From contig JAUVZM010000001.1 in NCBI GenBank assembly GCA_030602615.1, forward strand, positions 73,720 to 137,719: a DNA stretch of 64,000 nucleotides. The letters are read 5' to 3'. The notes under the pieces were generated by a model, which saw only the letters and a program-made list of their open reading frames with translations, had not been told where the DNA came from and did not search any database. The number at the start of each line of letters is the position of its first letter. Positions within the stretch are counted from its first letter, which is position 1. The stretch is from a bacterium (GTDB taxonomy: Bacteria > Armatimonadota > Zipacnadia > Zipacnadales > Zipacnadaceae). Shown here one piece after another: positions 447-51,390 of the stretch. The position numbers and the translations under genes were made by a program.

Positions 447-506
447 CCAAGCGGCAGCGGTATCGATCTCTCTGTCTTTGGCTAACTGGGGCCATGCAGG
501 TGTTGG

Positions 507-535
507 GGCAGGAATGCCCCTCCTACCGGTTTTGG
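507..535 (+). terminator. Intrinsic terminator-like hairpin
   Basis: GGCAGGA-atgcccc-TCCTACC followed by GGTTTTGG, immediately after the stop of ORF 3..446 and before dnaE. Confidence 0.45.
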
Positions 536-624
536 AACGCTTTCTAACAATAGACCACGGGTTTTGGAGCAGTCTCTACCGGTAAATCACAGTAAACTAC
601 ACACCAATACAAGGAAACCAGCCA

Positions 625-17866: not shown

Positions 17867-17897
17867 TTGCATCGTTGTAGTGCTCCTTGTTTGTCGC

Positions 17898-17925
17898 GGC
17901 AGGAATGCCGCTCCTACCGGTTTGG
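17898..17925 (+). terminator. Intrinsic terminator after the atp operon (same hairpin sequence as 507..535)
   Basis: GGCAGGA-atgccgc-TCCTACC then GGTTTGG. Identical at 27 of 28 nt to the hairpin at 507..535. Confidence 0.5.
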
Positions 17926-18060
17926 CAATAGTTTCGTTCTGTTCATCTTGCCGGCAACAAATAGACCCCTGAGAAGGAGATAGGGCGCAGCTTAGAGAAG
18001 GGGCTATTGTGGCTTGGAATATCACTGCGAAGGCTAAAGCCTGTATAAGGGGGTTCCAAC

Positions 18061-18876: not shown

Positions 18877-18892
18877 CTGCCAGGAGCAGGAT

Positions 18893-19936: not shown

Positions 19937-20046
19937 GCTGCCCGCTAGTTGGCGATGTGGTGTCGTCTGTTATTGTGCCTTCGCGGCTTGACAGCAGCCG
20001 TCAACTCTGGGAAAATGGAATAGGAAACAATAGCTTTGGCAGGAGG

Positions 20047-21453
20047 ATGGTTCAAGTGACGAGATGGATGAGAATTGCGGTAGTATTGCTCGCTGCAGCA
20101 GTAGTGGCCGGCTGCGGGGGCGGCCCGAGCTCCTCTCGACAGACCAGTCGCCAGCAGCTCACCATTCGCGGCACCAGCTTTCCGCAACAGCTAGAGCCAG
20201 CCAGCCAGGTGAGCGTCTATGAAGACGACTACAACGGCTGGCCAGCGCTGTTTATGAAGAATGGTCTGGTCACGGTAGTGGCAGTGCCGGCCATCGGCGG
20301 TCGGATTATGGAGTACAACCTGGGCACTCACCCCTTCCTGTGGGTCAACGACGCTGAATTTGGTAAGACCTATGACCCACCCAAGACAGAGGAAGAGCGA
20401 CGGTGGCACAACTATGGTGGGTACAAAGTGTGGCCGGCCCCAGAGAGCCGCTGGGACGGGCCGCCTGATCCGTTGGGCTCGGCTCTGGATGGCGGAAAGT
20501 GGACTGGCGAGATCACTGCCCACGGTGGCCAGATTGGGGAGATTGAGCTGGTCAGTCCCGCTGACGAGAACGTGACGGGTTTGCAGATTAAGCGGAGAGT
20601 ACAGATGTTTGCTGGTACTACCCAGGTAGTGGTTACCGAGACCTTCGAAAACGTAAGCGCCGAGCCGATTGAATGGAGTATCTGGGGAGTCACCCAGGTC
20701 CGCGGCTCGCTGTCCAGCAGCGAAAAGTTCAGTGAACAGGCCCGCATCTACTTCCCGCTGAATCCCGACAACCGTGCCTCGAAGGGCTTCTGGTATTTGA
20801 CCAAAGGTCCGTCGGATCAATTTCAACTGCTCGACGATGGGAAGCTGATGCAGGTCTCTTACGGCTTTGAGACCAGCAAAATCGGCGCAGACGTAGCTGA
20901 CGGCTGGATGGCTTACGTTGACGATATTCACCAGTATGCTTTTGTCCAGCGTTTTGAGGAGCGGAGCTTGAGCGAATATCCCGACCAGGGCGCGAACGTG
21001 GAGGTATATACCTCGGGTGAAGAGTTCGCCCATATGGAGATGGAGACACTCAGCCAGTTATACACCCTCCAGCCCGGCGAGACGAAATCCTACTCTCAAC
21101 AGTGGTATGCCACCAGCTTGCCAGGACCGGTTCGCGATACCACCGAGCTGGCGGCTATCCGCGAGCCGTTGCGCCTGGAAAGTGTGGAGGCGGGATTGCA
21201 GCTTACTGGCGAGCTGGGCATATTTGCGCCAGGAACCCTTGAGGTCGTCCTGACTGACAGTGCAGGGAGACCTATGGGCGAGCCGGTGGCTGCGATCACA
21301 GTCAGCCCAGCACAGACAGTGGTGTTGGACCAGATTGTAACGCCGCAGCCAGAGGCGTCGGCACTGGTCCTGAGACTGGTCAACGACTGGGACACACCGC
21401 TGGGCGAGGTAGCCAGCGTCTCGTTGGCGACCCAGACCGCGCAGGCCCCCTGA
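20047..21453 (+). CDS. Secreted lipoprotein, possibly DUF4380 / mutarotase-like fold
   Basis: Lipobox LLAAAVVAGCGG after an AGGAGG RBS. GGRIMEYNL motif and a beta-rich sequence. No catalytic assignment possible. Confidence 0.45.
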   Translation: MVQVTRWMRIAVVLLAAAVVAGCGGGPSSSRQTSRQQLTIRGTSFPQQLEPASQVSVYEDDYNGWPALFMKNGLVTVVAVPAIGGRIMEYNLGTHPFLWVNDAEFGKTYDPPKTEEERRWHNYGGYKVWPAPESRWDGPPDPLGSALDGGKWTGEITAHGGQIGEIELVSPADENVTGLQIKRRVQMFAGTTQVVVTETFENVSAEPIEWSIWGVTQVRGSLSSSEKFSEQARIYFPLNPDNRASKGFWYLTKGPSDQFQLLDDGKLMQVSYGFETSKIGADVADGWMAYVDDIHQYAFVQRFEERSLSEYPDQGANVEVYTSGEEFAHMEMETLSQLYTLQPGETKSYSQQWYATSLPGPVRDTTELAAIREPLRLESVEAGLQLTGELGIFAPGTLEVVLTDSAGRPMGEPVAAITVSPAQTVVLDQIVTPQPEASALVLRLVNDWDTPLGEVASVSLATQTAQAP

Positions 21454-21635
21454 ATCCGATGGTAAAGACCCGCATTTACCATTTGTCACTGGGAGGTAAG
21501 AGAGCTGGATGAGGCCCTGGGCTTGACCGAGTTAACGGGGCTTACGCCGGTAGCGGGTGACTATGCCCTTACTGCGGCGAAGGATCGGTGGTGTTGCGTA
21601 TGCCCAGGCGGGATTGTCTCTGCTATCGCCCCAGC

Positions 21636-21669
21636 GCTGTCATACTTGTTCAATTCGGGGCAGAATCCC
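21636..21669 (+). promoter_or_regulatory. Conserved promoter module (copy A): CTGTCA, 18-nt spacer, CAGAAT
   Basis: 31 of 34 nt identical to 30322..30355, and matches the inverted copy at 26741..26771. RBS GAGGTGG and ATG 21683 follow. Confidence 0.55.
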
Positions 21670-21682
21670 AGAGGTGGACGAA

Positions 21683-24304
21683 ATGTACAATGCCAAAGCA
21701 ACAGTGTTTTTGGCAACTCTGATGTGTGCAGTAGGACTGACAATATGTGAGGCGTACACCGAGAGCTTCCCCGGGGGGATCTTGGGGCCACGGCAATCAC
21801 AGATCCCGGCGGCGCAGTGGACGAAGGCCGAGTTAGACAAGGGGTACGTGGTCTTCACGCATAGCACCTTGGAGGGCCTTCAACCCGACTACGTGCCCGC
21901 GCGGAGAGCGGTCGTCGGCAAGGTATCCTGTGCCCTGGCCCAGGGTGAGTACAAGTCCGTGCAGATCGGCGTCCACTCGCTGACCGGAGGCCTTCAGAGC
22001 GTGCGCCTGGAGCTTGAATCGGACCTGGAGGCCAGGATATACCGCTCCATTGACGGGGAGACGAGGAAGCTGCTTCTGGGATATGAGAACCCCGTGCCTG
22101 ACTCGATCCATGCCGTGTGTCTGGACGAGTCGAGCCGGATCGCCTCGATCGAGAAAGGGAGCACCTCCTTTTTCTGGGTGACCCTTCATGCAGAGGAGAA
22201 CGCCACTGCAGGCAAGCACCGTGGCAAGATGCTTATCCGACCCGCGGGCAGGCCTGCCACGGAACTGGATCTGGAGGTGACCGTAAGGCCCTTCAAACTC
22301 CAGCGCGCCAGAATTGCCTACGCTCCGTTCTTCTACGTGGAGTGGAAGCCGGGGGCGCTCCCCAAGTTCGCCCAGACCGACGAGTGGATCGGCGCCTTCT
22401 TCCGCGACATGGCCGAGCACTCGCACACCTCCGTCATCATACACGGCGCGGGATTCGTGGACTTCTCCAGGCTCCCCCCTCCGGAGAACCGGTACTTCTC
22501 TACGCTGCTCCCTCTGGCCAAGCAGGTGGGTCTGACCAGCCCCGGCATCCCCATCATCGTTATGGACCACAACATGGCCCGGAGGCAAGACCAAGGCGGG
22601 ATGGAGACCGTGGAGCAGAGGAATGCGGCTATGGACTGGTACGAGGCAGAACGGCGCAAGCACGGCTGGCCGGAGATCGCCGCTTATGGCCAGGATGAAC
22701 CATCTTATCCGCATCCTGTTGTTCGGAGGAACTGGGAGTGGTTCCGCGATGTACGGATGCGGCTAGCCACCGCGTTGTTTGCCCCGGCAGCGTACGGGTT
22801 CGGAGATTTCCACGATATCTGGATTGTGATTGGGGGAAGTATCACGCAGGAGATGGTCGCGGAGGCCGAGCGGATGGGCGCGGAAGTGTGGACCTACATC
22901 TGTACGCCCATGTCCAACAATCCCCTGCACGAACGCCACTATGCAGGCCTGTACGTCTGGGCATACGGATTGAAAGGTCATACCACGTGGCATCACTATG
23001 ACGGGGGCGAGTTCAAGCTCGTGTGGATGCGGGAAGGCGACCAGCGCCCGATGCCGCTGGTCGGGTGGGAGACCCGTCGCGAAGGCGTTGACGACTACCG
23101 TTATCTGCAGATGCTGGAGGACTGCGTTGCGGCCCAGCCGGGCAATCCCCTGGCCGCTGAGGCGAAGAAGTGGATAGCCGGCCTGCGCGCCCGAATCGTC
23201 ACAGCGGATCCCTACATCCGAAACGTTCCTGGAAAGCCTTTGGCCCTGGATGAGTATGACCGTATCCGCGAGAAAGCGGCGGGGTACATCCAAAGGTTGG
23301 GTCCAGTACCGGCGGACCGGATTCCCCCGAGTCCACCCACACGCCTGAAAGACGAGGCGAAGCTCTTCCGAGGCAAGCCCGTGCAAGAGTGCATCGCCGG
23401 CCTCAGGAGCACGCAGGCCTCCACCCGTCGCGCGGCAGCATGGGCTCTGTTCGAAAAAGGCTGGCAGGCCGCCCCGGCTGTGCCAGCTCTGACGGACTTG
23501 CTGGACGACACCGATGTGCGCATACCGGCGTTGCGGGCGCTGGAGGCGATCGGGCATGAGAGCCGCCCGGCCCTGCCGAAACTGACAGCGCTCCTGAAAC
23601 ATCCGGACGGGTTCGTGCGACTGGGCGCCATTCACGCCCTGGGCGCCATCGGAGCACCTTCCATTCATGCGCTGATGCAAGCGACGGGAGACGAGTATTG
23701 GCCAGCCAAGTGCCGTGCCGCGAACTACATGCCGTGGATGGCAGGACAAGCAGCTCTGCGATCGGCGATGCCCGCCGTGCTGCCGGTCCTGATCAAGCTA
23801 CTCGACGATCCTAGCCCGAATGTGTGGACGTCGACTTTGTGGGCCTTCGAGCTCATCGGCCCGGAAGCTGCGCCCGCCGTGCCGCACATCATCAGGCTCA
23901 TACAGGGAGTTGTCCCAACTACCCGTCTCCGCTACCATAAACGCTGGACCGATGCACTGGCAGCCATCGGACCCGGAGCGGCGCAAGCCGTACCCATGTT
24001 GGAGGAGTTCCGCAAGGACCACGGCTCTTCAGATCCGCTCGCGGAAGCCTATGCGTTAAACGCGCTGTACAGAATCAGGGGCTCGCCGGAGGACCTCCAC
24101 GCGCTCGTCGCCCTGATCAGCGGCGCCGGAGAGGGACCGATAGACGCATCCGCGGCCCTGCAAAAGCTGGAGGAACTGGGCAGCGAGGCGAGAGACGCCG
24201 CGCCCCAGATCCGGGAGCTGATCGCTCAGGGCGGCCTGAGCGACGACGTGAAGAAGCGGCTTGAGGCAGTCCTCGATTCGATAGCCGCCCCGGCCGGCGA
24301 GTGA
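21683..24304 (+). CDS. Secreted GH123-like (DUF4091) putative beta-N-acetylhexosaminidase fused to C-terminal HEAT/PBS-lyase-like repeats
   Basis: Signal peptide MYNAKATVFLATLMCAVGLTICEA. Central region is paralogous to ORF 26984, sharing the G.DEPS motif, WTY.C block and REGV(D/E)DYR(Y/L)L motif. The C-terminal ~300 aa are repeated AAPAVPALTDLLDD / ALRALEAIG HEAT-like units. Start set to ATG 21683; the tool ORF starts at 21557. Confidence 0.6.
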   Translation: MYNAKATVFLATLMCAVGLTICEAYTESFPGGILGPRQSQIPAAQWTKAELDKGYVVFTHSTLEGLQPDYVPARRAVVGKVSCALAQGEYKSVQIGVHSLTGGLQSVRLELESDLEARIYRSIDGETRKLLLGYENPVPDSIHAVCLDESSRIASIEKGSTSFFWVTLHAEENATAGKHRGKMLIRPAGRPATELDLEVTVRPFKLQRARIAYAPFFYVEWKPGALPKFAQTDEWIGAFFRDMAEHSHTSVIIHGAGFVDFSRLPPPENRYFSTLLPLAKQVGLTSPGIPIIVMDHNMARRQDQGGMETVEQRNAAMDWYEAERRKHGWPEIAAYGQDEPSYPHPVVRRNWEWFRDVRMRLATALFAPAAYGFGDFHDIWIVIGGSITQEMVAEAERMGAEVWTYICTPMSNNPLHERHYAGLYVWAYGLKGHTTWHHYDGGEFKLVWMREGDQRPMPLVGWETRREGVDDYRYLQMLEDCVAAQPGNPLAAEAKKWIAGLRARIVTADPYIRNVPGKPLALDEYDRIREKAAGYIQRLGPVPADRIPPSPPTRLKDEAKLFRGKPVQECIAGLRSTQASTRRAAAWALFEKGWQAAPAVPALTDLLDDTDVRIPALRALEAIGHESRPALPKLTALLKHPDGFVRLGAIHALGAIGAPSIHALMQATGDEYWPAKCRAANYMPWMAGQAALRSAMPAVLPVLIKLLDDPSPNVWTSTLWAFELIGPEAAPAVPHIIRLIQGVVPTTRLRYHKRWTDALAAIGPGAAQAVPMLEEFRKDHGSSDPLAEAYALNALYRIRGSPEDLHALVALISGAGEGPIDASAALQKLEELGSEARDAAPQIRELIAQGGLSDDVKKRLEAVLDSIAAPAGE

Positions 24305-24528
24305 GAAATCAGCAAAATAATCTTCCAGATGGTGGAGGTGGCAGTATCCAGGGAGCTCTTTGAGCAAGTATTGGGACGAATCTGGGCCTTAACGCCCGGC
24401 ACTGGGTGACAGTGCCGTCGGCGACGGGATTATTGATAGTTAGTGTCTGGCGCAGGCCAGCCCTCACTGGAACGTGGGCTAAGTGCGATAGTGGCGCTTG
24501 AATTCTGTGACTATCTTGTTAAAACCAC

Positions 24529-26613
24529 TTACTCTCCCGCTACTGGCATCCACACGCGCATTGCGGAATCGGCGCGATTAGCCCAGGCATAATAGGGAAT
24601 AGCCGTCACCAGGACTTTGTCCCTACGCATTGTGGGTCGCGTACCTAGCGGATGATAGAGGGGACTGTTCTCCGGGGCATAGCAAACTGGCAAGGCCCGC
24701 CGGCGCAGGACGGTCACGCCGCCCAGCAGGTCGGGCTGCCACTCAGGCCGGAAGCCGCCCTCCGGGTCTGGCGTCTCGAAGACCAAGGCCAGGTCAGCCA
24801 GAACCGTGTCGGGATTATCTACACTCTCAAAGCAGTAGACTAACGGGCCACGCTGCAACGCCACACAGCCCCGGTTCTCCGCCACACGTGGATGGCTTTC
24901 CATTATTCGCACCGGCATTGGTAACTGCAGGCGGACCGTATCTCCGGGCCGCCACCGGCGTGTAAGCTTTAGATAATTGCCAGGCTCAATGGCCGCAGAC
25001 AATGGCTCATCATTCACCGCTGCCGCGGCTCCTGCTGCCCAGCCCGGAATGCGGAGGAAGAGAGTGAACTGTGCAGGTTGTTGCAAATCTAACGCGATTT
25101 CAATCTCGCCCTCCCCCGGGTACTTAGTGTCCATCTTCAGTGTGACTCGGGGGCCGTCGGGTACAGGGAGCGTGGCCTGGCAGGTATCGTAAAGGTGCAC
25201 CCAGAGGCCCTGGCGGCTGGTACTGAAGAGGTAACCGGGAACAGCCGCCAGCGTACGGTGGATGTTGGGGGGGCAGCAGTTGCACGGGAACCAGGACTGC
25301 CGCTGGTAGCCGCCGTCCGAGGCCAGCGGGTTGCCGTAGAAGTATTTGCTCCCGTCCAGAGATACGCCGGACAGAAAGCCATTGTATAGAATCGTCTCCA
25401 TCACATCCGCATACTGGGCCTCGCCCGTCAGCAGCAACATGCGCCAGGCCCACATTGCGTGCGCGATCTGTGCACAGCTCTCGGCATAGGCCCAGGTGAG
25501 TTCGTTATAGTGCGCCCGCGGTCCAGGGAAATACCCCCATCGTCCCCCGTGTTGTGAAGGCCGTGTACCGGTGGTGTCGGCCCAGGCGTTAGGCAGCTCG
25601 TACCGCTCACCGAAAGACTCGCCGCGAGCCCCCATGCCACCAGTGATGTAGATCTTACCTCCGACTAAGTCCTGCCACAAGGACTGCAGGTTGGCCCACA
25701 TCTGCTCGTCGCCAGTTTCAGCATAATAGTCAGCTCCGCCACAGCAGAGATAGCCGGACCGGACGGCGTGACCTACCACGATGCGATTGTTTAGATATTG
25801 GGACTGGCCCAAGAAGAAGGCAGCGAGGTCCCAATAGCGCGTCCTACCGGTGGTGCGGTACAGTTCGATCAGGGCCATTTCCACCTCGGGATGTCCGGGG
25901 GCGGCCTCGATTTTTCCGGGGCCAAACTCCTGGCATATATAATCAGCGAGGCGGCAGGCCACTTGCAGCAAACTGTCCTGGCCGGTGGCCCGGTAGTAGG
26001 CAATCGCCGCCTGCACTAGATGCCCGGCGCAGTACAGCTCATCGGGGCAAGTGTTGAGGAACAAGCGGCCGTCTTCGCCCTGGGCGGCTGCGATGTCGTC
26101 AATAATTGCTGCCACCGTTTGCCGCAGTTCAGGCAGATCCTGCGACTGGAGAGCCCAGGAGACCCCCTCCAGCCACTTATACAGGTCAGATTCGCTGCCG
26201 TAAGAAGCGTCCCGGAATTCAACCTGCTTGCGTCCGGACAGGCGCCGGAAATTATCCACCACCCCATGCTCCTCCATTAGACGTAGGAAAGTGGGCATTC
26301 CCTCCTTGGCATTGGCCTCCATTCGCGGCCGCCAAAAGCCTGGCCCCATTGCTACCGCCCGGATCGGCACCGATTGCAACCGAAACTGCGACCCCCGGCG
26401 GGTATCGACAACGCCGCCTTGTTGCCACTGGTCCTCCGGTTGTAGTTCCCTATCTTCGACAATGCCGCCGTTGGGGTCAAAACCTGTGCGTGCCACGACA
26501 CCCTCAGGCACCGGTCTGAAGGCTGGTTTAGCTTTTCCTGCACGAATCACGCTAACAAGCAATGCGCAAACACCAACTAGCACCAACAAGTCAGACAGTC
26601 TCATGTTCTTCAC
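24529..26613 (-). CDS. GH127 (DUF1680) beta-L-arabinofuranosidase-like glycoside hydrolase
   Basis: 694 aa. N-terminal signal anchor. GH127-type GFWRPRMEANAKEGMPTFLRLMEEHGVVDNFRR block and Cys-rich catalytic region. GTG start. Confidence 0.75.
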   Translation of the reverse strand: MKNMRLSDLLVLVGVCALLVSVIRAGKAKPAFRPVPEGVVARTGFDPNGGIVEDRELQPEDQWQQGGVVDTRRGSQFRLQSVPIRAVAMGPGFWRPRMEANAKEGMPTFLRLMEEHGVVDNFRRLSGRKQVEFRDASYGSESDLYKWLEGVSWALQSQDLPELRQTVAAIIDDIAAAQGEDGRLFLNTCPDELYCAGHLVQAAIAYYRATGQDSLLQVACRLADYICQEFGPGKIEAAPGHPEVEMALIELYRTTGRTRYWDLAAFFLGQSQYLNNRIVVGHAVRSGYLCCGGADYYAETGDEQMWANLQSLWQDLVGGKIYITGGMGARGESFGERYELPNAWADTTGTRPSQHGGRWGYFPGPRAHYNELTWAYAESCAQIAHAMWAWRMLLLTGEAQYADVMETILYNGFLSGVSLDGSKYFYGNPLASDGGYQRQSWFPCNCCPPNIHRTLAAVPGYLFSTSRQGLWVHLYDTCQATLPVPDGPRVTLKMDTKYPGEGEIEIALDLQQPAQFTLFLRIPGWAAGAAAAVNDEPLSAAIEPGNYLKLTRRWRPGDTVRLQLPMPVRIMESHPRVAENRGCVALQRGPLVYCFESVDNPDTVLADLALVFETPDPEGGFRPEWQPDLLGGVTVLRRRALPVCYAPENSPLYHPLGTRPTMRRDKVLVTAIPYYAWANRADSAMRVWMPVAGE

Positions 26614-26771
26614 TTCTTCTTTCAGCGAGATTTCCCAGATGCTTTGTTGCTGCCTGTAGCATCCTCTGTTTACTGCACTGCTTCCTCCCGATGCGGATCA
26701 TTTAGCTAGAAAAACTCCAGATTAGAACACTTCTGACGAAGATTCTACCCCGAATTGAACAAGTTTGACAA
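26591..26771 (-). promoter_or_regulatory. Conserved promoter + leader + uORF cassette (copy C, oriented with GH127)
   Basis: On the minus strand: TTGTCA, 18 nt, TAGAAT (plus coordinates 26741..26771). Leader CGTCAGAAGTgTTCTAATCT...GCATCGGGAGGAAGCAGTGCAG follows. A 23-codon uORF (26591..26662, MLQAATKHLGNL...) overlaps the GH127 start in the +1 frame. Confidence 0.55.
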
Positions 26772-26876
26772 CTTTTGGACCGATGGCAAAGACAGTCCCG
26801 CTTGGGCATAAACCCAATCACCATTGCTACAGAATAATGGTTCAACTGCTACCTATAATTCTAACACAACTGTCCC

Positions 26877-26905
26877 TTGATAGCAAGCCCCCCGTGTGCT
26901 ATAAT
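26877..26905 (+). promoter_or_regulatory. Sigma70-like promoter for ORF 26984
   Basis: TTGATA, 17 nt, TATAAT in the divergent intergenic region. Confidence 0.45.
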
Positions 26906-26983
26906 AGGAAGGTAACTTTCGCAACAGTCTCAAACAAGTAAGAGCCAAATGCTAAATCTCGATGAGAAGGAAAGGATGCTGCC

Positions 26984-28765
26984 ATGAGAATGATTGCCAA
27001 CGACTTGCGGTGTTATGTCATATGGATGCTGGCGGGTGTCTGGTGCGTGGCACTGATGACAAGCGCGTTCGCGGCGGCTGAGCAAGCCGACCGGGTCATG
27101 AACTGGCGCCAATATCCCACTCCTTACGGGACGCCCGCCACGGCCCGCCCGCCGGACGAGGCGTTCTTGAAGGTCATACCGCCCTTGAAGACACTGGGTA
27201 CCATCAGTGACGAGGCGAAGGAGTTGGGGGTCGCCGTCTGGTGGGCCGACTACGGGCAGAATGTCTTTTGCGAGCAGCCGCCGACCGACGAGGACCTCGC
27301 GCGCAAGGGCGCAATCCGCACGAGCGCGGGCGAGGACGAGCCGTTGGTCCTGGCGCTGTGGGGGCTCGACGACGTGGGCAATGCGACGCTTAGCGCGAAC
27401 GCCCCGGTCTTCCCGGTCACGATCCGCAAAGTGGAGTTTGAGCCCCGGTACATCCCGGGCGACTACCGGGACTATCACATCGACGGTGGGCGCAAGGTGG
27501 GCATTCCCACGTATCTGCCGGAAGAATCGAGCGTCGTGGTGAAGGCTGGCGAGAACGCGCCGTTCTGGGTGACGGTGTCCGTGCCCGAGGACGCCGCGCC
27601 CGGGACTTACGAGATTCCGTTCCGGTTGATCCTCACGGACGCGAACAAGGCCGTGACGCTCGCGGTCACGGTCGAGGTGCTGCCGTTCGAGCTGCCGCGG
27701 GCGAAGATCGCCTACGGTATGTATTTTCGCCCCTCGGCGAAGACGCTCGAGAACCCGCGCGACCGCACGCCGGAGCGGCTGCGTTTCTACTGGCGAGATA
27801 TGGCACGTCATGGCATGACAAGTGCGACCCTCTACAACTACACTCGCCTGCACGATCCTGAGGGGAATCTCAATCTCCACACCGTGCCGGTGCTGGGGTG
27901 GCTTGAGGAGATGATCGAGGAAGGGCTCGTCACGCCGGACGTGCCCGTCATGTACCTGGACGGCGGCGGGATCGACCTGGCGAACCCCAAGACGCCGGAG
28001 ATCCTCGCCTCGCTCAAGGAGGAGATCGCCGAGCGCGGCTGGCCGGAATTCCTCTACTACGGGCCCGACGAGCCGTCGGTCAATGACAAGGGCTGGGCGG
28101 ATTTCGAACGCCTGCAGCCCTTGCGCGAGTATTTTCGCGTCGTCACCGCGATCGGCGATCACGCGGTAAACGCGTATGCGGATTTTCTGGATGTTTATAT
28201 CGTGAACGCCGGTTGCACGAGCCCGGAAATGTACAAGCTGGCTGCCGACAAGGACGCGGAGCTGTGGACCTACACATGTCACAATCGAGGGCGAAGCAAT
28301 GCGCCGTTCCAGCGATACTACGCGGGCATTTTCACGTGGGCGCTGCGCCTGAAGGGAAACTTCATGTGGGCTTACACCGAGAACTATACGCGGGAAAAGG
28401 GTCAGTATCTTCCCTGGTCTCCGCTGTACTGTTACGTGGTTCCCAGCGACGAAGGAGCGATCCCGTCGATCGCCTGGGAAGTCCGCCGGGAGGGTGTGGA
28501 GGACTATCGCCTGCTTACGCTCCTGGAAGAACAGATAGCGAAGAATCCTGACAACACGGTCGCTGCCGAAGCGAGAGACTGGCTGGAGCAACTGCGCGGG
28601 CGCGTTGACTGGTATATCGCGCGCGACATGCCACCGTCGCTGTATCCGTGGGACGGTCCAGAACTCTATCCGCTCTGCCCGAACTTCGAACCGGCGGAGT
28701 TCTCGAAGATCCGGGCCAAGGTGATCGATTACATTCTTCAGTTGAGCAGCGCCGCCGGCGGCTAG
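26984..28765 (+). CDS. Secreted GH123-like (DUF4091) protein, paralogue of 21683
   Basis: 593 aa. Signal peptide. Shares the LPRAKIAYG, YGPDEPS, WTYTC and REGVEDYRLL blocks with the 915-aa protein. Confidence 0.6.
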   Translation: MRMIANDLRCYVIWMLAGVWCVALMTSAFAAAEQADRVMNWRQYPTPYGTPATARPPDEAFLKVIPPLKTLGTISDEAKELGVAVWWADYGQNVFCEQPPTDEDLARKGAIRTSAGEDEPLVLALWGLDDVGNATLSANAPVFPVTIRKVEFEPRYIPGDYRDYHIDGGRKVGIPTYLPEESSVVVKAGENAPFWVTVSVPEDAAPGTYEIPFRLILTDANKAVTLAVTVEVLPFELPRAKIAYGMYFRPSAKTLENPRDRTPERLRFYWRDMARHGMTSATLYNYTRLHDPEGNLNLHTVPVLGWLEEMIEEGLVTPDVPVMYLDGGGIDLANPKTPEILASLKEEIAERGWPEFLYYGPDEPSVNDKGWADFERLQPLREYFRVVTAIGDHAVNAYADFLDVYIVNAGCTSPEMYKLAADKDAELWTYTCHNRGRSNAPFQRYYAGIFTWALRLKGNFMWAYTENYTREKGQYLPWSPLYCYVVPSDEGAIPSIAWEVRREGVEDYRLLTLLEEQIAKNPDNTVAAEARDWLEQLRGRVDWYIARDMPPSLYPWDGPELYPLCPNFEPAEFSKIRAKVIDYILQLSSAAGG

Positions 28766-29082
28766 TGCGCCCCAACCGGGATCGTCAGCTTTGAGACGTT
28801 TGGGCCTGCATTATAGAGAGCGCACAACTTGCCCGGCCGCCAGCGCGGACGGGAGCCATAGACCTTGAGCCTGAAGATGTCCTCCTCAACTCGGTAGCAA
28901 GACGTAGCCAGCAGCTCGCCGCCGGGCAACAGTGCTACGGAGGTTTTATAGATGTCCCGCTGCCCGATGCGAACCCGCATGGCCGGTTGAAGGGTCCAGT
29001 GGACCACCTGCTGCAAGTCGAAGCCAGTAAAGCCAGCCATCCCTTCCGGGTACTGGGCATAGTCTGGCTCTTCGGCGAACAC
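28762..29082 (-). CDS. Short hypothetical ORF, possibly a gene remnant
   Basis: 106 aa from a GTG start. The stop overlaps the convergent GH123-like gene. No domain recognised. Its upstream end runs into leader copy 1. Confidence 0.2.
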   Translation of the reverse strand: MFAEEPDYAQYPEGMAGFTGFDLQQVVHWTLQPAMRVRIGQRDIYKTSVALLPGGELLATSCYRVEEDIFRLKVYGSRPRWRPGKLCALYNAGPNVSKLTIPVGAH

Positions 29083-29111
29083 CGGCGCCGTAGCCGGCTC
29101 GATTGGCGCCG

Positions 29112-29289
29112 CCCCGTCAGAAGTCTTCTAATCTCGGGTCTTTCTAGCTAATTGATTCGCATCCGGAGGAATTAGTGCAGGAAATAGAGAATGTCAAACG
29201 TAGTAACAAACGATATGAGAGACCCCAGTTCACTGTCATCCAGGCATTCCTGGTGCTCTGGCTCGACTAAGGGGGAAAGGAATAACGCT
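29112..29289 (+). promoter_or_regulatory. Conserved leader + uORF cassette (copy 1, lacks the -35/-10 module)
   Basis: CCCCGTCAGAAGTCTTCTAATCTCGGGTCTTTCTAGCTAATTGATTCGCATCCGGAGGAATTAGTGCAGGAAATAGAGAATG, about 90 % identical to copy 2. The uORF ATG at 29191 (MSNVVTNDMRDPS...) runs in frame into the PIG-L gene. Confidence 0.55.
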
Positions 29290-30198
29290 ATGTCTAAAAG
29301 ACCGCTCGTAGTCGAGAATATTCTGCCGGACGAAAACATTAACATCCTGGTCGTTGGTGCGCATCCGGCTGATGCGTTTGATGATATCGGCGGCACGCTG
29401 GCCCATCACGCGGCCCGGGGCGATCACATCACCGCCTTAATCCTGACACACGGAGCGCGTGTCCACGATGTGGTCTTGACCGATGAGGTGGGCCAGCGCG
29501 AGCGCGCTCCCACCCGCGAGGAACTGGAGCCCATCATCGAGGAGCGCACGAGCGTGAAGCACCAGGAAGTCCTGGAAGCCTGCCAGATTCTAGGGTTCTC
29601 CGACTTGCGCTTCCTCACCTACGACGACAGCGTCCTGACCCTAAAAGAGGAGCTCATGCAGAGGATCGCTAAAGTCATTCGAGAGGTGCAGCCGCATCTC
29701 CTCATTACTCACTATCCCCTCGAAAGCGGAGGCATCGCCAGCCACCATGCTATCACGGGCCAACTGGTCCTCAATGCCGTGGGGTCGGCCTCCAGAGTCT
29801 CGCCTGAAGACCCTAACCCCCCATGGGGGGTGCCCGAGGTCTATTTCAAGGCCATCCATACGGCACTGGCGAGGCCAGACGTGCTGAGTCACGCTACTGC
29901 AGGCTTTGCCAATGTCTATGTGGACGTCACCGACGTCATCGAACTCTTAGTCAAGGCTCTGGACAAGATGAAGAGCCAACAGTACAACGGTGCCTGGGCC
30001 CGTAAATCCCGCGAGGTGTACGAGGGCGTCTTTGGCCTCAATGTCGGTGTCGCCTACGCCGAAGCGTTCATCCGCCTTAGGGCACAAGTCTGCGATTACC
30101 TGCCCCTCTCACACTATGCCATGGCAAGGGCTAACGAGCTTGAAGCCACTGAGCACCGTCGCCAGAACCTCCTAGTGTGCCATACAGTGCCTGAATAG
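29290..30198 (+). CDS. PIG-L / LmbE-family N-acetylglucosaminyl deacetylase
   Basis: ILVVGAHPADAFDDIGGTLAHH (HPDD-type motif) and the H..H zinc region. RBS AAGGGGGAAAGGA before ATG 29290. The tool ORF starts at the upstream in-frame ATG 29191. Confidence 0.7.
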   Translation: MSKRPLVVENILPDENINILVVGAHPADAFDDIGGTLAHHAARGDHITALILTHGARVHDVVLTDEVGQRERAPTREELEPIIEERTSVKHQEVLEACQILGFSDLRFLTYDDSVLTLKEELMQRIAKVIREVQPHLLITHYPLESGGIASHHAITGQLVLNAVGSASRVSPEDPNPPWGVPEVYFKAIHTALARPDVLSHATAGFANVYVDVTDVIELLVKALDKMKSQQYNGAWARKSREVYEGVFGLNVGVAYAEAFIRLRAQVCDYLPLSHYAMARANELEATEHRRQNLLVCHTVPE

Positions 30199-30321
30199 TC
30201 GTACAGTGGTCTTTATGTTGTCAACTGTATCAGTATGCGGGTGGATATGGCAGGTGCACCAAGCGGCGGTTGTTCTGTCTGATGTTGCCAAGGCAGGAGT
30301 GTCTCTGCCCTGGGCCCGCAA

Positions 30322-30508
30322 GCTGTCATACTTGTTCAGTTCGGCGCACAATCCCCGTCAGAAGTCTTCTAATCTCGGGTCTTTCTAGCTAATTAATCCG
30401 CATCGGAGGAATTAGTGCAGCAAACAGAGAATATGAGTAGTCCCAGATTAGTGCAGGAAACAGAGAATGTTGAACGTACTGGCAAAGCATATGAGAAATC
30501 CCAGCTAA
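30322..30508 (+). promoter_or_regulatory. Conserved promoter + leader + uORF cassette (copy 2)
   Basis: CTGTCA, 18 nt, CACAAT module, then the same ~80-nt leader with an internal 22-nt duplication (ATTAGTGCAGcAAACAGAGAAT repeated). 13-codon uORF at 30467..30508 (MLNVLAKHMRNPS). Located upstream of the MttB-like gene. Confidence 0.55.
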
Positions 30509-30554
30509 CCAAAACCCCAAGCCGACGAGTTAGCCTACCATTGTAGGGAGATTA

Positions 30555-31979
30555 TTGGAATTGATTACTTTCCGCCTCGACGGTGGGTTCACGGAAGCCC
30601 AACTGGATCAGGTATACAGCGAAACTTTCCAGGTACTTGAGGAAATCGGCGTGGAGGTCGGCGACGACGAGATTCGTCAGTATCTGGGAGAGTTACCGGG
30701 CATCTCCGTGCGAGGCACACGGGTCTGCTATGCCCCCAGCCTGGTGAAAGAATGGATCGAAGTCATCAAAGAGGACAATCTTGAGTACGCTTACAACCGC
30801 AAAGACGGCCGCATCCGGATGGTCGGACCGTACATGGGACAGTACTATCACGACCCAGACACCGACGAGGTGCGGCTAGCGACCGGGGCGGATATGAGCC
30901 TTGCGGTGAAGCTGTGCGACGCCCTTGACTTCTACGGTCCCTCGCCGATCCACCTGCAGACCGTCCCTCCACCTGTTCGCCAAGTGACGACCTTCAAGAT
31001 CTGTGTGGAGAACAGCCGAGAAGTCGGTGGCTGGGGGCCGGCGGCCACCGAGAAGGACGGATACTGGCTGTGCCAGATTGGTGAAGCGGCAGGGCGCCAG
31101 CCTCCGCACTGCTGTATGGAGATCCCCATCAGCCCCCTGCGGCTCAACCACAAGGCTCTACGGATGATTTACAATCGCCGTAATCAGGATGATCAACTGA
31201 CCGGCATGGTACTGGGCGGCGGGGTTGTGCCGATGCCTGGAGCAACGGCGCCCATCTTTGCGCCAGCCTGCTTTATCCAGAGCATGGCCGAGGCCCTGGC
31301 CGCCTACATCACCCCTCAGTTAATTGATCCCCGAGTGCAGGGGTACTGCTCGTTCGGCGGTAAGCTGTTCGATCTGCGGCGTATGACCCCAAGTATTATG
31401 TTTCCCGAGACTGCCCTGTACACCAGCTTGGTCCGGCAGGTCATTCAGCGTTTCTTAGGTGAGACGATGGGCGGTCAACTCGCCGATGTGGGTATCATGA
31501 AAAGATTCGAAGACTACAGTGTGGACGGGTTTGGCAGCCCACAGGCCACCCTTGAGTTGGGCTTCCGCATAGCCCTGGACATCCTGGCCGGTGCGCGCAC
31601 CTTCCTGGGAGTAGGTGGGTACGGTGATGGCTTCTGTCCCGTGACGGCGGTTATTGAGGCCGACCTGGTGAACCACTTTACTAAATTCATTGCTGGCTGC
31701 GCATACCGTTATGAACCCGGGATCAATCTACGCACTATGACCGAGGCCCTGGAGGACAAAAACTACCTGGCGCATCCCACGACGCTAGAGTATCGTGAGC
31801 TGTATCTAATCCCAGAGTTGGTCTTCAGGCATGACACGCGCCCGGAACTGGTCGCCGCCGCTTGGGAGAAGGCCCAACAGATAGTCGCCGAGCACGACTA
31901 TGCGCTGCCCGAGGACGTACAGCGCAACGTCACAGAAGTCTACGAAGCGGCGTGTGCAGACCTACTGGAAGGGAAGTAG
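30555..31979 (+). CDS. MttB-superfamily methyltransferase, non-pyrrolysine member (quaternary-amine:corrinoid methyltransferase-like)
   Basis: 474 aa, TTG start after GGGAG. PMPGATAPIFAPACFIQSMAEALAAYIT resembles the MttB GATAP...AGxL block. No in-frame amber codon. Confidence 0.55.
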   Translation: MELITFRLDGGFTEAQLDQVYSETFQVLEEIGVEVGDDEIRQYLGELPGISVRGTRVCYAPSLVKEWIEVIKEDNLEYAYNRKDGRIRMVGPYMGQYYHDPDTDEVRLATGADMSLAVKLCDALDFYGPSPIHLQTVPPPVRQVTTFKICVENSREVGGWGPAATEKDGYWLCQIGEAAGRQPPHCCMEIPISPLRLNHKALRMIYNRRNQDDQLTGMVLGGGVVPMPGATAPIFAPACFIQSMAEALAAYITPQLIDPRVQGYCSFGGKLFDLRRMTPSIMFPETALYTSLVRQVIQRFLGETMGGQLADVGIMKRFEDYSVDGFGSPQATLELGFRIALDILAGARTFLGVGGYGDGFCPVTAVIEADLVNHFTKFIAGCAYRYEPGINLRTMTEALEDKNYLAHPTTLEYRELYLIPELVFRHDTRPELVAAAWEKAQQIVAEHDYALPEDVQRNVTEVYEAACADLLEGK

Positions 31980-31982
31980 ACC

Positions 31983-32930
31983 ATGGGGCTGCAAATCAGA
32001 GATTTCGCGCCTGTGGGTGCTGATCTGGCGACCATCTGCCACATCTGGAACGAAGCGGTGGCCCCAGAATCAGAATTGTATCTGCATATGACGCCAGAGT
32101 TGCTGGCCGAGCGGCTTGCCGGTCGCTCTGGTACACCTAGGCGCATCTGCCTACTGGCGCAAGCCCAGGGCGAAGCCATAGGGCTGGCCGTAGGGACGGT
32201 GACGCCAGCGGCAGCCCCTGAAGCGGCCAATCTGGCCTGTGTAGCAGTGTTGCCGCAGGCCCGGTGGCATGGTATCGGCTCAGCCCTACTAGCTGAAATT
32301 GAGGAAAGAAGCCGGGCCGCCGGCTGCACCAAGTTGAAGGTGGGCTCTGCTTCCCAGGTCCGGCTGGCCCACGGCGTTGCCCCGACTACACCCGGCCATC
32401 TGTGGCTGCTGCACAAAGGCTTTCGCGTCGCCAAAGACGAATTGTTCATGCGCATGGCATTCGGCACATGGCAAATGCCAGGGCAGATCCAGCAAATAAT
32501 CGAGGGCCTCTGCGCTCAGGGCGTTGACTTTCGCATAGCGACAAAGGGTGACCTGCCTGGGCTTATGGCCACTGCCCGAGAGTTTAGCGACCATCTACCC
32601 CAGATATTCCAGGATAACGTGGCGGGAGCCAAGGGCGCACCGGTGCTGATTGCAGTAGAGGGTGGACAGGTGGTGGGGTTCGTCGGCCCGCTGACGGTAT
32701 CGAAGTGCGGCTTTGCCGACTTCGCTTTTATAGGTGTTTCTGAGACTTACCGGGGTCGGGGGATCGGCAAGGCGCTGTTCTATCTTTGCTTGGACAATTT
32801 CCAGGAACGCGGCGCCCGCGCTTTTGAGCTGGTGACCGACTCGACCAACCCTGCGCAGAAATTGTATCTGGACGCGGGCATGCGCCTGGTGACTGTGTTA
32901 TTACATCTTGAGAAGCGTCTGGGCCACTGA
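31983..32930 (+). CDS. Tandem-GNAT N-acetyltransferase
   Basis: 315 aa with two acetyl-CoA binding cores (VLPQARWHGIGSALL and VSETYRGRGIGKALF). ATG lies 4 nt after the MttB stop. Confidence 0.7.
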   Translation: MGLQIRDFAPVGADLATICHIWNEAVAPESELYLHMTPELLAERLAGRSGTPRRICLLAQAQGEAIGLAVGTVTPAAAPEAANLACVAVLPQARWHGIGSALLAEIEERSRAAGCTKLKVGSASQVRLAHGVAPTTPGHLWLLHKGFRVAKDELFMRMAFGTWQMPGQIQQIIEGLCAQGVDFRIATKGDLPGLMATAREFSDHLPQIFQDNVAGAKGAPVLIAVEGGQVVGFVGPLTVSKCGFADFAFIGVSETYRGRGIGKALFYLCLDNFQERGARAFELVTDSTNPAQKLYLDAGMRLVTVLLHLEKRLGH

Positions 32931-51201: not shown

Positions 51202-51249
51202 TAAGCCCCTGCTCCGCAAATGACCTCGCGTAGTCTTCCGCCGCCTTAC

Positions 51250-51390
51250 GGAAAGAGCCCCAGGTAGCTGATTGCTCCGCCAATCGCGCGGGAGTCGGTC
51301 AGCGTCAGGTCCACCCGCCAGGAACGGTCGGGAGCCGCGCGCAGCCCGTAGTTGAACCAGTCGGTGTCGTATTCCCCGATTACTGCCAGG
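51250..51390 (-). pseudogene. Duplicated 3'-terminal fragment (about 47 codons plus stop) of the YjbH-like gene at 52444..54708
   Basis: About 94 % nucleotide identity to 52447..52589. The frame is intact and encodes ...VIGEYDTDWFNYGLRAAPDRSWRVDLTLTDSRAIGGAISYLGLFP*. Confidence 0.6.

What the first reader, a model, noticed from the sequence alone, without database searches (positions are those of the whole stretch)
21636..30510. Reused promoter + 5'-leader cassette in front of GH127, PIG-L, MttB-like and GH123-HEAT genes
Three copies share about 85-90 % identity over roughly 80-120 nt: 29112-29230 upstream of PIG-L, 30322-30510 upstream of MttB, and an inverted copy at 26620-26771 oriented with GH127. 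A fourth site, 21636-21669 directly upstream of the GH123-HEAT gene, carries only the promoter part.

The promoter-like module is TTGTCA, an 18-nt spacer ACTTGTTCAATTCGGGG, then (C/T)AGAAT. The -35 region itself contains a tandem TTGTCA-nnn-TTGTTCA direct repeat.

The transcribed leader is CGTCAGAAGTCTTCTAATCTCGGGTCTTTCTAGCTAATTGATTCGCATCCGGAGGAATTAGTGCAGGAAACAGAGAATG. It contains complementary segments (CTAATCTC paired with GAGGAATTAG) that could sequester the GGAGGA.

Conservation of a 100-nt non-coding block in front of four functionally related genes points to a shared cis-regulatory RNA or operator, possibly a leader RNA or a transcription-factor site of a local regulon. Copy 2 also has an internal 22-nt duplication.
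Basis: seen in the sequence. Interest (0 to 1): 0.78.

Follow-up and report, generated by a model that had tools for sequence, protein, structure and literature searches.

The report
Recently copied promoter-plus-leader DNA module
A roughly 250-300 base stretch of non-coding DNA, made of a likely promoter and an unstructured 5' leader, has been copied in whole or in part in front of several unrelated sugar-degradation genes in one narrow bacterial lineage; it is a clean example of the known "promoter reuse" phenomenon, not a new regulatory RNA.

Summary
The repeats are real. There are two full copies, c2 at 30240-30522 (+) before the MttB-like gene and c3 at 26605-26864 (-) before GH127. There is a leader-only copy, c1 at 29112-29251, before PIG-L, and an upstream-plus-promoter-only copy, c4 at 21520-21671, before the GH123-like/HEAT gene.

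- **Position:** every copy points at an ORF and ends 14-57 nt before its start codon.
- **RNA structure:** nothing supports a structured RNA. Rfam gave no hit, the leaders fold no better than shuffled sequence (z +0.02 to +1.96), and there are no compensatory pairs. The proposed SD-sequestering hairpin is broken without compensation in 2 of 6 copies.
- **Small ORFs:** the small ORFs in the leader are not conserved.
- **Mobile-element features:** there are no terminal inverted repeats.
- **Distribution:** the family is very narrow. A 20-base core found no true match in 185,579 species genomes and two true copies in the metagenome collection, one before an unrelated gene and one cut off from its gene by an IS.
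- **Close relative:** it has a full cassette before PIG-L whose 5' part carries the last 28 nt of PIG-L, so it spread by segmental duplication. The same relative's MttB has no cassette.
- **More distant homologues:** loci with 61-78% protein identity lack the cassette.

Verdict: a putative mobile promoter plus 5'UTR family, and a new member of a known kind.

The parts
21520..21671 (+). Copy c4: upstream block plus promoter only (-35 CTGTCA 21637-21642, 18-nt spacer, -10 CAGAAT 21661-21666). It ends at ...AATCCC, 14 nt before the ATG (21683) of the GH123-like/HEAT gene. No leader is present.
   Evidence: nhmmer model positions 4-131. Alignments. D10 and I4.
21683..24304 (+). GH123-like/HEAT-repeat secreted protein (873 aa), downstream of c4.
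   Evidence: Pfam HEAT_2/HEAT. The N-terminal 400 aa are 31% identical to the GH123 protein at 26984. The same 873-aa gene call appears on Logan contig L011.
24529..26604 (-). GH127 beta-L-arabinofuranosidase-family gene, driven by c3.
   Evidence: Pfam GH127 catalytic, middle and C-terminal domains, E 1e-77.
26605..26864 (-). Copy c3: full cassette in inverted orientation (-35 TTGTCA 26771-26766, 18-nt spacer, -10 TAGAAT 26747-26742, leader to about 26620). It ends about 16 nt before the GH127 ATG at 26604.
   Evidence: nhmmer model positions 7-263, E 2e-78. Promoter scan 10/12. I1 and I2.
26845..26932 (+). Separate element: remnant of the right end of an IS5-family insertion sequence, with an outward-facing near-consensus promoter (TTGATA-17-TATAAT with a TG motif, 26877-26905). 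It points into the GH123 gene.
   Evidence: 86% identical to L003 1466-1524, and the similarity stops exactly at the IS terminal inverted repeat GTCTC. The L003 transposase has DDE_Tnp_1 and DUF772 domains. Promoter scan 11/12.
26984..28765 (+). GH123-family gene. It is not preceded by the cassette, and it probably supplies read-through transcription to c1 and PIG-L.
   Evidence: Pfam GH123_cat. No + strand promoter-like site was found in 28766-29111.
29112..29251 (+). Copy c1: leader only, starting at CCCCGTCAG. It contains GAGGAA (29166-29171) and a GTG (29175) that opens a 31-codon uORF ending at 29270. The PIG-L ATG is at 29290.
   Evidence: nhmmer model positions 127-264. Orthologous to the 3' part of the full cassette in relative L015; homology starts exactly at 29112.
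29290..30198 (+). PIG-L/LmbE-family deacetylase gene, flanked by c1 and c2.
   Evidence: Pfam PIG-L. Logan contig L004 equals window 29124-30382 and breaks inside both cassettes.
30240..30522 (+). Copy c2: full cassette (-35 CTGTCA 30323-30328, 18-nt spacer, -10 CACAAT 30347-30352, leader from about 30357), with a 36-nt internal duplication (30411-30446). The MttB-like TTG start is at 30555.
   Evidence: nhmmer hits at 30240-30434 and 30447-30522. Duplication. Homology to the cassette-free locus L005 starts at 30542.
30555..32930 (+). MttB-like (non-Pyl trimethylamine methyltransferase family) gene and GNAT acetyltransferase gene, downstream of c2.
   Evidence: Pfam MTTB and Acetyltransf_1. 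95% nt identical to L005 678-3120.

Best explanation
The repeats are paralogous copies of one non-coding module. The module has an upstream block of about 60-150 nt, a sigma-70-type promoter (-35 [C/T]TGTCA, 18-nt spacer, -10 nAnnAT) and an AT-rich, unstructured 5' leader of about 120 nt that carries an invariant SD-like GAGGAA.

The module was duplicated within a narrow lineage, probably Armatimonadota. The mechanism was segmental duplication or illegitimate and homologous recombination, not transposition. Copies were retained where the 3' end landed just upstream of a gene's ribosome-binding site, so the module supplies transcription, and probably a common 5'UTR, to otherwise unrelated genes. 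This is the phenomenon described as putative mobile promoters or promoter reuse.

In this window, full copies drive GH127 and MttB-GNAT, and a promoter-only derivative drives the GH123-like/HEAT gene. The PIG-L copy has lost its promoter half and is now an internal leader, probably read through from GH123.

Shown: the repeat family, its boundaries, its orientation and distance to start codons, its presence or absence in relatives, the duplicated PIG-L 3' fragment, and the lack of RNA structure.

Inferred: promoter activity, the transcription start site, and any role of GAGGAA or the GTG uORF in mRNA stability or translation.
For: 1. Repeats far exceed chance.

2. All gene-linked copies are in sense orientation and end 14-57 nt from the start codon: c4 14 nt, c3 about 16 nt, L002 about 17 nt, c2 about 33-45 nt, and c1 and L015a about 40-57 nt.

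3. The downstream genes belong to different Pfam families: HEAT/GH123-like, GH127, PIG-L, MTTB, and Cu_amine_oxidN1 in L002.

4. The -10 hexamer varies (CACAAT, TAGAAT, CAGAAT, CAGGAT, CATAAT) but always keeps A2 and T6. c3 scores 10/12 and L015a 9/12 in the promoter scan.

5. In the close relative L015 (94% nt identity), PIG-L is preceded by a full cassette. Its 5' part (L015 1388-1650) is 94% identical to window 30171-30432. It therefore includes the last 28 nt of PIG-L plus the spacer, so it was copied from the site downstream of PIG-L with an arbitrary 5' boundary.

6. The MttB-GNAT module is 95% identical in L005, but the similarity stops 13 nt before the start codon, and L005 has no cassette.

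7. Homologous loci lack the cassette: PIG-L at 73-78% aa identity (L016, L017, L018), GH127 at 61-64% (L012-L014) and MttB at 65-69% (L006-L010).

8. There are no terminal inverted repeats, no Rfam hit, no excess folding energy and no covariation.

9. Orthologous cassette divergence between window and L015 is 3.6-7.4%. That is about the same as fourfold-degenerate sites in PIG-L (6.6%), so similarity reflects recency, not strong constraint.

10. The published PMP criteria are met: at least 80% identity over at least 50 nt within -150..-50 (c1-c3 85% over 53 nt; c1-c2 83% over 58 nt; criteria from PMC3575422 and PMC3488235).
Against: - No transcription data exist, so the promoter is a consensus match only. 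c2, c4 and L002 reach only 8/12 or less and were not called by the scan.
- An 18-nt spacer is at the long end of the usual range.
- Only 8 copies at about 6 independent sites are known, because the source genome could not be scanned. Genome-wide orientation bias is therefore untested.
- Four copies clustered in 9 kb of one glycan-degradation cluster, with none in the other 55 kb, could also mean a locally selected co-regulation device. That is compatible with a regulon operator.
- Two cassette sites lie next to the same IS family (L003, and window 26845-26932), so an IS-assisted route is not excluded.
Confidence: 0.68

Rival explanations
1. Regulon device. The cassette is kept because it carries an operator for a transcription factor. 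Candidate sites are the AGAAG-N-CTTCT palindrome at about +3 to +13, and the paired TGCC(N2-3)GGC motifs 20 nt apart at about -75 to -45. Copying the cassette places glycan-degradation genes under one regulator. This overlaps the best explanation and adds a specific regulatory function.
For: All four window copies sit in one carbohydrate-active gene cluster, running from DeoC, ADH and DUF4380 through GH123-like/HEAT, GH127, GH123 and PIG-L to MttB and GNAT. The upstream block is shared by six copies, with invariant GGA.TGTC..TGC positions. The +3 palindrome is perfect in c1, c2, L002 and L015a.
Against: No regulator gene lies in or next to the cluster. The palindrome is degraded in c3 (AGAAGTGTTCT) and L003 (ACAAGTGTTCT). 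L002 places the cassette before an unrelated Cu_amine_oxidN1 gene. Cassette divergence is about the neutral rate, so conservation carries no signal.
Confidence: 0.3
2. Structured cis-regulatory leader RNA (riboswitch, thermometer or SD-sequestering switch) or a leader-peptide attenuator.
For: c1, c2, L003 and L015a can form a GCUAAUU...AAUUAGU hairpin that partly covers GGAGGA. GTG follows GAGGAA in 5 of 6 copies and opens uORFs of 31 codons (c1), 43 (c2) and 22 (L003) (sequence).
Against: Rfam has no match at E<=1. Fold z-scores are +0.02 to +1.96, so the leaders are no more stable than shuffles. The alifold covariation term is positive. There are 0 compensatory pairs, and the hairpin arms are broken in c3 and L002. 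No terminator-like hairpin lies in any leader. The uORF has a stop at codon 3 in c3 and no start in L002. The alternative ATG ORF loses its start in L002 (ATA). Differences between c1 and c2 are not concentrated at third codon positions (sequence).
Confidence: 0.05
3. A non-autonomous transposable element (MITE, REP or Correia-like), or an IS-end-derived outward promoter, that moves by transposition.
For: The element is multi-copy and short, and AT-rich relative to the genome (45-49% vs 59% GC). It breaks short-read assemblies at its copies (L004 and L011). An IS5-family element sits immediately 3' of the copy in L003, and a remnant of the same IS end abuts the 5' side of c3. An integrase gene lies about 600 nt upstream in L002.
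Against: There are no terminal inverted repeats in three full copies. The 5' boundaries vary: c3 starts at about -95, c2, c4 and L002 at about -150, and L015a carries an extra PIG-L fragment. No target-site duplication is seen. All copies are oriented with the downstream gene. The cassette shares no sequence with the IS itself.
Confidence: 0.08
4. Functionally inert debris: leftovers of local segmental duplications and rearrangements in a recombination-prone cluster, with no promoter or leader function.
For: Divergence is near the neutral rate. Truncated halves exist (c1, c4). Another 144-nt duplicated gene fragment flanks a gene elsewhere in the window (51247 and 52445). PIG-L and MttB show equal substitution at all codon positions against the close relative.
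Against: All gene-linked sites have the module's 3' end 14-57 nt from a start codon, in sense orientation. The key -10 bases A2 and T6 are kept in all six promoter-bearing copies. The cassette persists in at least three or four distinct genomes (window, L015, L002, L003).
Confidence: 0.12

Closest known systems
Putative mobile promoters (PMPs) / promoter reuse in prokaryotes (Matus-Garcia, Nijveen and van Passel 2012; PMC3488235, PMC3575422)
   Same: Highly similar non-coding sequence (at least 80% over at least 50 nt) lies in the -150..-50 region of non-paralogous genes in one genome. It is not an Rfam family, an IS or a MITE, and the mobilisation mechanism is unknown. Most described families are small (pairs), as here.
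   Different: Here the module is longer (about 250-300 nt) and clearly modular. There are promoter-only and leader-only derivatives. Comparison with a close relative gives direct evidence for how one copy arose, because the copy carries 28 nt of the neighbouring gene's 3' end. The lineage (probably Armatimonadota, known only from metagenomes) was not in the 2012 survey.
IS-end outward promoters and promoter capture by insertion sequences
   Same: Imported DNA supplies a promoter to the adjacent gene. A real example lies in the same intergenic region: the IS5-family right-end remnant at 26845-26932 in front of GH123.
   Different: The main cassette shares no sequence with the IS, has no inverted repeat ends, and is not attached to a transposase gene.
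Promoter-bearing MITEs (Correia elements in Neisseria, ERIC, REPIN)
   Same: Short intergenic repeats that can carry promoters and alter expression of neighbouring genes.
   Different: Those elements have terminal inverted repeats, target-site duplications, tens to hundreds of copies and both orientations. None of these features is seen here.
STAB-SD 5' mRNA stabiliser (Bacillus thuringiensis cry3A; Agaisse and Lereclus 1996, reviewed in PMC4113751)
   Same: An SD-like sequence (GAGGAA, invariant in six copies) sits in a long 5'UTR, 60-120 nt from the real start codon. Bound 30S subunits there could protect the mRNA.
   Different: In 5 of 6 copies a GTG follows at SD-like spacing, so the sequence may simply initiate a short uORF. 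Stabilisation was not tested, and it is unknown whether this lineage has RNase J. This is a resemblance in possible mechanism only.

Membership tests
Putative mobile promoter (PMP) family | [quoted passage not shown] | tested here: met
   Within that window, c1-c3 are 85% identical over 53 nt, c1-c2 83% over 58 nt, and L002-c3 88% over 91 nt. Criterion from PMC3575422.
Putative mobile promoter (PMP) family | Downstream coding sequences are not paralogues | tested here: met
   The downstream genes fall in different Pfam families: HEAT/GH123-like, GH127, PIG-L, MTTB and Cu_amine_oxidN1. BLASTP found no hits among the HEAT, PIG-L and MttB proteins.
Putative mobile promoter (PMP) family | Not explained by a known RNA family, IS or MITE | tested here: met
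   Rfam gave no match. There are no TIRs. There is no similarity to the neighbouring IS. ISfinder itself was not available.
Putative mobile promoter (PMP) family | Actually functions as a promoter | not testable with these tools
   Only consensus matches are available: c3 10/12, L015a 9/12, the others 8/12 or less. A2 and T6 of the -10 are invariant.
MITE / REP-like mobile repeat | Terminal inverted repeats and fixed ends | tested here: not met
   No inverted repeats at the ends of c2, c3 or L002. The 5' ends differ between copies.
MITE / REP-like mobile repeat | Many copies genome-wide with no bias toward gene 5' ends | tested here: inconclusive
   No extra copies in the remaining 55 kb of the window or in 14 related loci. 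All known copies are 5' of ORFs in sense orientation. The source genome could not be scanned.
Riboswitch / structured cis-regulatory leader | Thermodynamically stable, conserved secondary structure with covariation | tested here: not met
   Fold z-scores are +0.02 to +1.96. The alifold covariation term is +0.62. There are 0 compensatory pairs in either candidate hairpin. Power is low because there are only six close copies.
Riboswitch / structured cis-regulatory leader | Match to a curated RNA family | tested here: not met
   cmscan of 20000-32000 at E<=1 gave 0 hits. The whole window at gathering threshold gave 0 hits.
Leader-peptide transcription attenuator | Conserved short ORF followed by alternative hairpins and an intrinsic terminator | tested here: not met
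   The GTG uORF has a stop at codon 3 in c3 and no start in L002. The ATG ORF has lost its start in L002. No terminator-like site lies in any leader.
STAB-SD-type 5' mRNA stabiliser | SD-like sequence in the 5'UTR, far from the start codon, that does not direct translation initiation | tested here: inconclusive
   GAGGAA is invariant in six leaders, 60-120 nt upstream of the gene starts. However, GTG follows 5 nt later in 5 of 6 copies, so initiation is possible.
STAB-SD-type 5' mRNA stabiliser | Measurable stabilisation of the transcript against 5'-3' decay | not testable with these tools
   This needs mRNA half-life measurements.
IS-end outward promoter (applies to 26845-26932 only) | Homology to the terminus of an IS, including its terminal inverted repeat | tested here: met
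   Window 26874-26932 is 86% identical to L003 1466-1524, and the similarity ends at the IR GCTTTC.CAACAGTCTC. The L003 element encodes a DDE_Tnp_1/DUF772 transposase.

The most novel reading that the evidence does not exclude
The cassette is a dedicated, portable expression module of this uncultured lineage. It would combine a promoter with a built-in operator and a deliberately unstructured leader whose GAGGAA-GTG element loads ribosomes, acting as an mRNA stabiliser or translational coupler. It would be spread actively, by IS- or recombinase-assisted movement or by targeted recombination at its fixed 3' end, so that a glycan-utilisation regulon is assembled by copying one cassette instead of by evolving sites de novo.
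Probability: 0.12. Interest if true: 0.55.

Novelty: new member of a known kind. Interest (0 to 1): 0.33.

Why it matters
Promoter reuse is documented statistically, but how a given copy arose is rarely traced. Comparison with a 94%-identical relative here catches three things:
- a copy that still carries 28 nt of the neighbouring gene, which points to segmental duplication;
- a copy that has since lost its promoter half;
- a gene module (MttB-GNAT) that has the cassette in one genome and not in the other.

The same intergenic region also holds an IS-end promoter feeding the opposite gene, so one small glycan-degradation cluster shows two routes of transcriptional rewiring.

For annotation, the repeat explains why short-read assemblies of this organism break around these genes. 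It also warns against calling the block a riboswitch or small RNA.

Tried and rejected
1. **Split-cassette idea.** c4 ends at ...AATCCC and c1 starts at CCCCGTCAG, so they might have been two halves of one cassette split by a 7.4-kb insertion. Rejected. The relative's full PIG-L cassette is 94% identical to the c2-type 5' part but only 87% identical to c4. c4 groups with the L002/c3 subfamily.

2. **Ancestral PIG-L-UROD-MttB operon with UROD replaced by the cassette.** Dropped. The URO-D genes of L010 and L016 are only 27% identical, and the L016 downstream gene is not MttB.

3. **Sigma-54 promoter.** L002 reads TGGCAT-N5-TTC. Rejected because the GG is absent in all other copies.

4. **ECF-type promoter.** No AAC -35 motif on the sense strand (sequence).

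5. **Integron attC or gene-cassette array.** No GTTRRRY core, one copy is inverted, and an integrase is seen only near L002. Not pursued.

6. **cspA-like long 5'UTR.** A CSD gene precedes PIG-L in L016, but there is no nhmmer or Rfam similarity.

7. **Collection scans.** The genome-contig scan gave only a chance hit in a Flavobacteriaceae MAG (L001). Two viral-contig scans gave nothing.

8. **Compositional island.** GC is about 59% across the whole window, so there is no island.

Full report
**Observation**

Reading the four sites and running a repeat search confirm the finding.
- The leader core TTCTAATCTNGNGTNTTTCTAGCTAA occurs at 26702-26727 (-), 29126-29151 (+) and 30367-30392 (+), against 0.00 expected.
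- The promoter core TGTCANACTTGTTCARTTCGGNG occurs at 21638, 26748 (-) and 30324, against 0.01 expected.
- Identities are 79-96% depending on pair and segment.
- Alignments show that the repeat extends upstream of the -35. All promoter-bearing copies share TGCCCAGGCGGGAcTGTCTCTGCCAT.GGCCC. c2, c4 and the metagenomic copy L002 share a further 50-60 nt or so.
- An nhmmer profile of the copies sets the limits at 21520-21671 (c4, model positions 4-131), 26605-26864 (c3, 7-263), 29112-29251 (c1, 127-264) and 30240-30522 (c2). It finds nothing else in the window.

So there are two full copies (c2, c3), one promoter-only copy (c4) and one leader-only copy (c1). The duplication in c2 is a 36-nt insert.

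**Gene context**

Pfam gives, in order:
- ADH (18815-19936) and DUF4380 (19957-21453).
- A HEAT-repeat protein (21683-24304), whose N-terminal part is 31% identical to the GH123 protein.
- GH127 (24529-26604, - strand), GH123 (26984-28765) and PIG-L (29290-30198).
- An MttB-like gene (30555-31979) and a GNAT gene (31983-32930).

The rest of the window is ordinary chromosome: dnaE, hisD, the ATP synthase operon, aromatic amino-acid genes, parAB and rib genes. It has no regulator or transposase gene near the cluster, and GC is even at about 59%. Named homologues point to Armatimonadota; this lineage assignment is an inference.

Every cassette copy points at a gene and stops just short of it:
- c4 ends 14 nt before the ATG at 21683.
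- c3 ends about 16 nt before the GH127 ATG.
- c2 ends about 33-45 nt before the MttB TTG.
- c1 ends about 40-57 nt before the PIG-L ATG.

**Is it an RNA element?**

- Rfam gives no match, either at gathering thresholds for the whole window or at E<=1 for 20-32 kb.
- Five leaders fold no better than dinucleotide shuffles (z +0.33, +0.02, +1.96, +0.97, +1.50). They are at most as structured as random sequence of the same composition.
- RNAalifold gives -7.95 kcal/mol with a covariation term of +0.62.
Both have 0 compensatory changes. Where the 3' arm differs (c3 AGCAG, L002 ATCCG), the pairs are simply lost.
- No terminator-like site lies in any leader.
- The leader ATG ORF (MLNVLAKHMRNPS* in c2) has no start in L002 (ATA).
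- A GTG placed 5 nt after the invariant GAGGAA opens uORFs of 31 codons (c1), 43 (c2) and 22 (L003). It hits a stop at codon 3 in c3 and is GTT in L002. Differences between c1 and c2 are not concentrated at third codon positions.

A structured regulatory RNA or a conserved leader peptide is therefore not supported. With six close copies, the power of the covariation test is low.

**Is it a promoter?**

- The scan tool calls c3 (TTGTCA-18-TAGAAT, 10/12) and the relative's copy L015a (CTGTCA-18-CATAAT, 9/12).
- c2 (CTGTCA/CACAAT), c4 (CTGTCA/CAGAAT) and L002 (GTGGCA/CAGGAT) fall below its threshold.
- Across six copies the -10 hexamer varies but always keeps A at position 2 and T at position 6. 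By established knowledge of sigma-70 promoters, these are the two bases that matter most.

Promoter function is thus plausible but inferred.

**Distribution**

- A 20-base core pattern that all copies match exactly found only a chance hit among 185,579 species-representative genomes (L001, Flavobacteriaceae).
- It found two real copies in the metagenome collection.
- L002 (SDBS01002721.1) has a full cassette ending 17 nt before a 605-aa Cu_amine_oxidN1-domain gene, with an integrase gene about 600 nt upstream.
- L003 (Ga0209977_10053964) has a full cassette followed immediately by an IS5-family element.
- Two viral-collection scans found nothing.
- Logan contigs of the same strain (L004 = window 29124-30382; L011 = GH127 plus HEAT gene) end inside cassette copies, as expected for assembly breaks at repeats.

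**Comparison with relatives**

1. L005 (JGI Ga0366832) carries the MttB-GNAT module at 95% nt identity from window 30542 onward, which is 13 nt before the start codon. Upstream it has a different gene, a 116-nt spacer and no cassette. Synteny also breaks on the other side (at 33253). This shows that the cassette is not tied to MttB; it does not show a clean insertion.

2. L015 (same sample) carries PIG-L at 94% identity, with L015 1570-2792 equal to window 29112-30334. There PIG-L is preceded by a full cassette (nhmmer model positions 9-263).
   - The 5' part of that cassette (L015 1388-1650) is 94% identical to window 30171-30432. It therefore includes the last 28 nt of the PIG-L coding sequence, the spacer and the c2-type promoter.
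   - This copy was made from the DNA downstream of PIG-L by segmental duplication or unequal crossover between leaders, with an arbitrary 5' boundary. It was not made by a transposon with fixed ends.
   - Homology between window and L015 begins exactly at CCCCGTCAG, so the window's c1 has lost its promoter half through a later rearrangement.
   - L015 also has the start of the c2-orthologous copy at its contig end.

3. No cassette is found next to PIG-L homologues at 78%, 74% or 73% identity (L016, L018, L017), GH127 homologues at 61-64% (L012-L014) or MttB homologues at 65-69% (L006-L010).

4. Orthologous cassette divergence between window and L015 is 3.6% in the leader (5/140) and 7.4% in the upstream part (7/95). 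Fourfold-degenerate sites of PIG-L differ by 6.6%. The similarity among copies is explained by recency; it is not evidence of constraint.

**Mobility features**

There are no terminal inverted repeats in c2, c3 or L002. The 5' ends vary. No target duplication is visible.

I tested the idea that c4 and c1 are two halves of one split cassette and rejected it. c4 is 87% identical to L015a, where 94% would be expected for an ortholog, and it groups with L002 and c3.

**Best explanation**

This is a lineage-specific family of duplicated promoter-plus-5'UTR modules. It meets the published definition of putative mobile promoters: at least 80% identity over at least 50 nt in -150..-50, upstream of non-paralogous genes, and not an Rfam family, IS or MITE (PMC3488235, PMC3575422). 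I put this at 0.68.

How the leader contributes is inferred. It is AT-rich (42-49% GC against 59%) and unstructured, and it carries an invariant GAGGAA far from the real start codons. It could aid ribosome loading or protect the mRNA in the manner of STAB-SD (PMC4113751). Alternatively it could simply start a short uORF that ends near the downstream ribosome-binding site: 19 nt before the PIG-L ATG and 9 nt before the MttB TTG.

A transcription-factor operator in the cassette would make the copies a small regulon. That remains possible and untested.

**Second element in the same region**

Window 26845-26932, just upstream of GH123, is homologous to the right end of the IS5-family element of L003. 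The similarity stops exactly at the IS terminal inverted repeat. The segment contains an outward near-consensus promoter, TTGATA-17-TATAAT with a TG motif.

The 379-nt divergent region between GH127 and GH123 is therefore built almost entirely from two imported promoters.

**Verdict**

The interpretation as a reused promoter/leader is right. The interpretation as a regulatory RNA is not supported. The element is a new member of a known kind. Its interest is modest and lies mainly in the traceable history of the copies.

Noticed in passing
window 26845-26932: A remnant of the right end of an IS5-family insertion sequence carries an outward-facing near-consensus promoter (TTGATA-17-TATAAT, TG motif). 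It lies directly upstream of the GH123 gene. The intact IS, with 17-nt terminal inverted repeats, is seen in L003 at 198-1523.
   Followed up: yes
window 51247-51390 and 52445-52588: A 144-nt direct repeat (94% identity) flanks the 4Fe-4S ferredoxin-domain gene at 51443-52324. The second copy is the 3' coding end of the YjbH-like gene on the minus strand (52444-54708), so the first copy is a duplicated gene fragment. This is another sign of segmental duplication in this genome.
   Followed up: partly
window 29290-30198 vs L015; window 30555-31979 vs L005: Against the 94-95% identical relative, PIG-L and MttB differ equally at all three codon positions (20/19/18 and 21/22/23 differences). Against a more distant PIG-L (L016) the third position dominates (39/34/82). 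This suggests relaxed selection, very recent divergence or contig errors.
   Followed up: partly
window 28766-29111: A 350-nt GC-rich stretch between GH123 and the leader-only copy c1 has no Pfam hit (an ORF of 106 aa on the minus strand) and no counterpart in the relative L015. It may be a pseudogene remnant left by the rearrangement that removed c1's promoter.
   Followed up: partly
L015 1218-1243: A perfect 26-nt palindrome, GTAGACTCACAATATTGTGAGTCTAC, lies in the 745-nt spacer upstream of the relative's full cassette. It looks like an operator and is absent from the window.
   Followed up: no
window 501-544 and 17892-17935: Two 82%-identical terminator-like elements (GGGGCAGGAATGCCCC hairpin, then a T-rich run). 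One lies just upstream of dnaE and one just after the ATP synthase operon, so a terminator sequence also appears to be reused.
   Followed up: no
window 55829-56643: Tandem 132-nt repeats (60-81% identity) lie inside the gene at 55592-56650. They encode PD40/WD40-like beta-propeller blades (Pfam PD40, 5 repeats), which is ordinary domain repetition.
   Followed up: yes
L002 8889-10050: A short tyrosine-recombinase (Phage_integrase) gene and a 134-aa ORF of unknown family lie divergently about 200-600 nt upstream of the L002 cassette copy. Whether this is linked to cassette spread is unknown.
   Followed up: no
window 21683-24304 vs 26984-28765: The N-terminal 400 residues or so of the HEAT-repeat protein are 31% identical to the neighbouring GH123 protein, although Pfam detects only the HEAT repeats.
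   Followed up: yes
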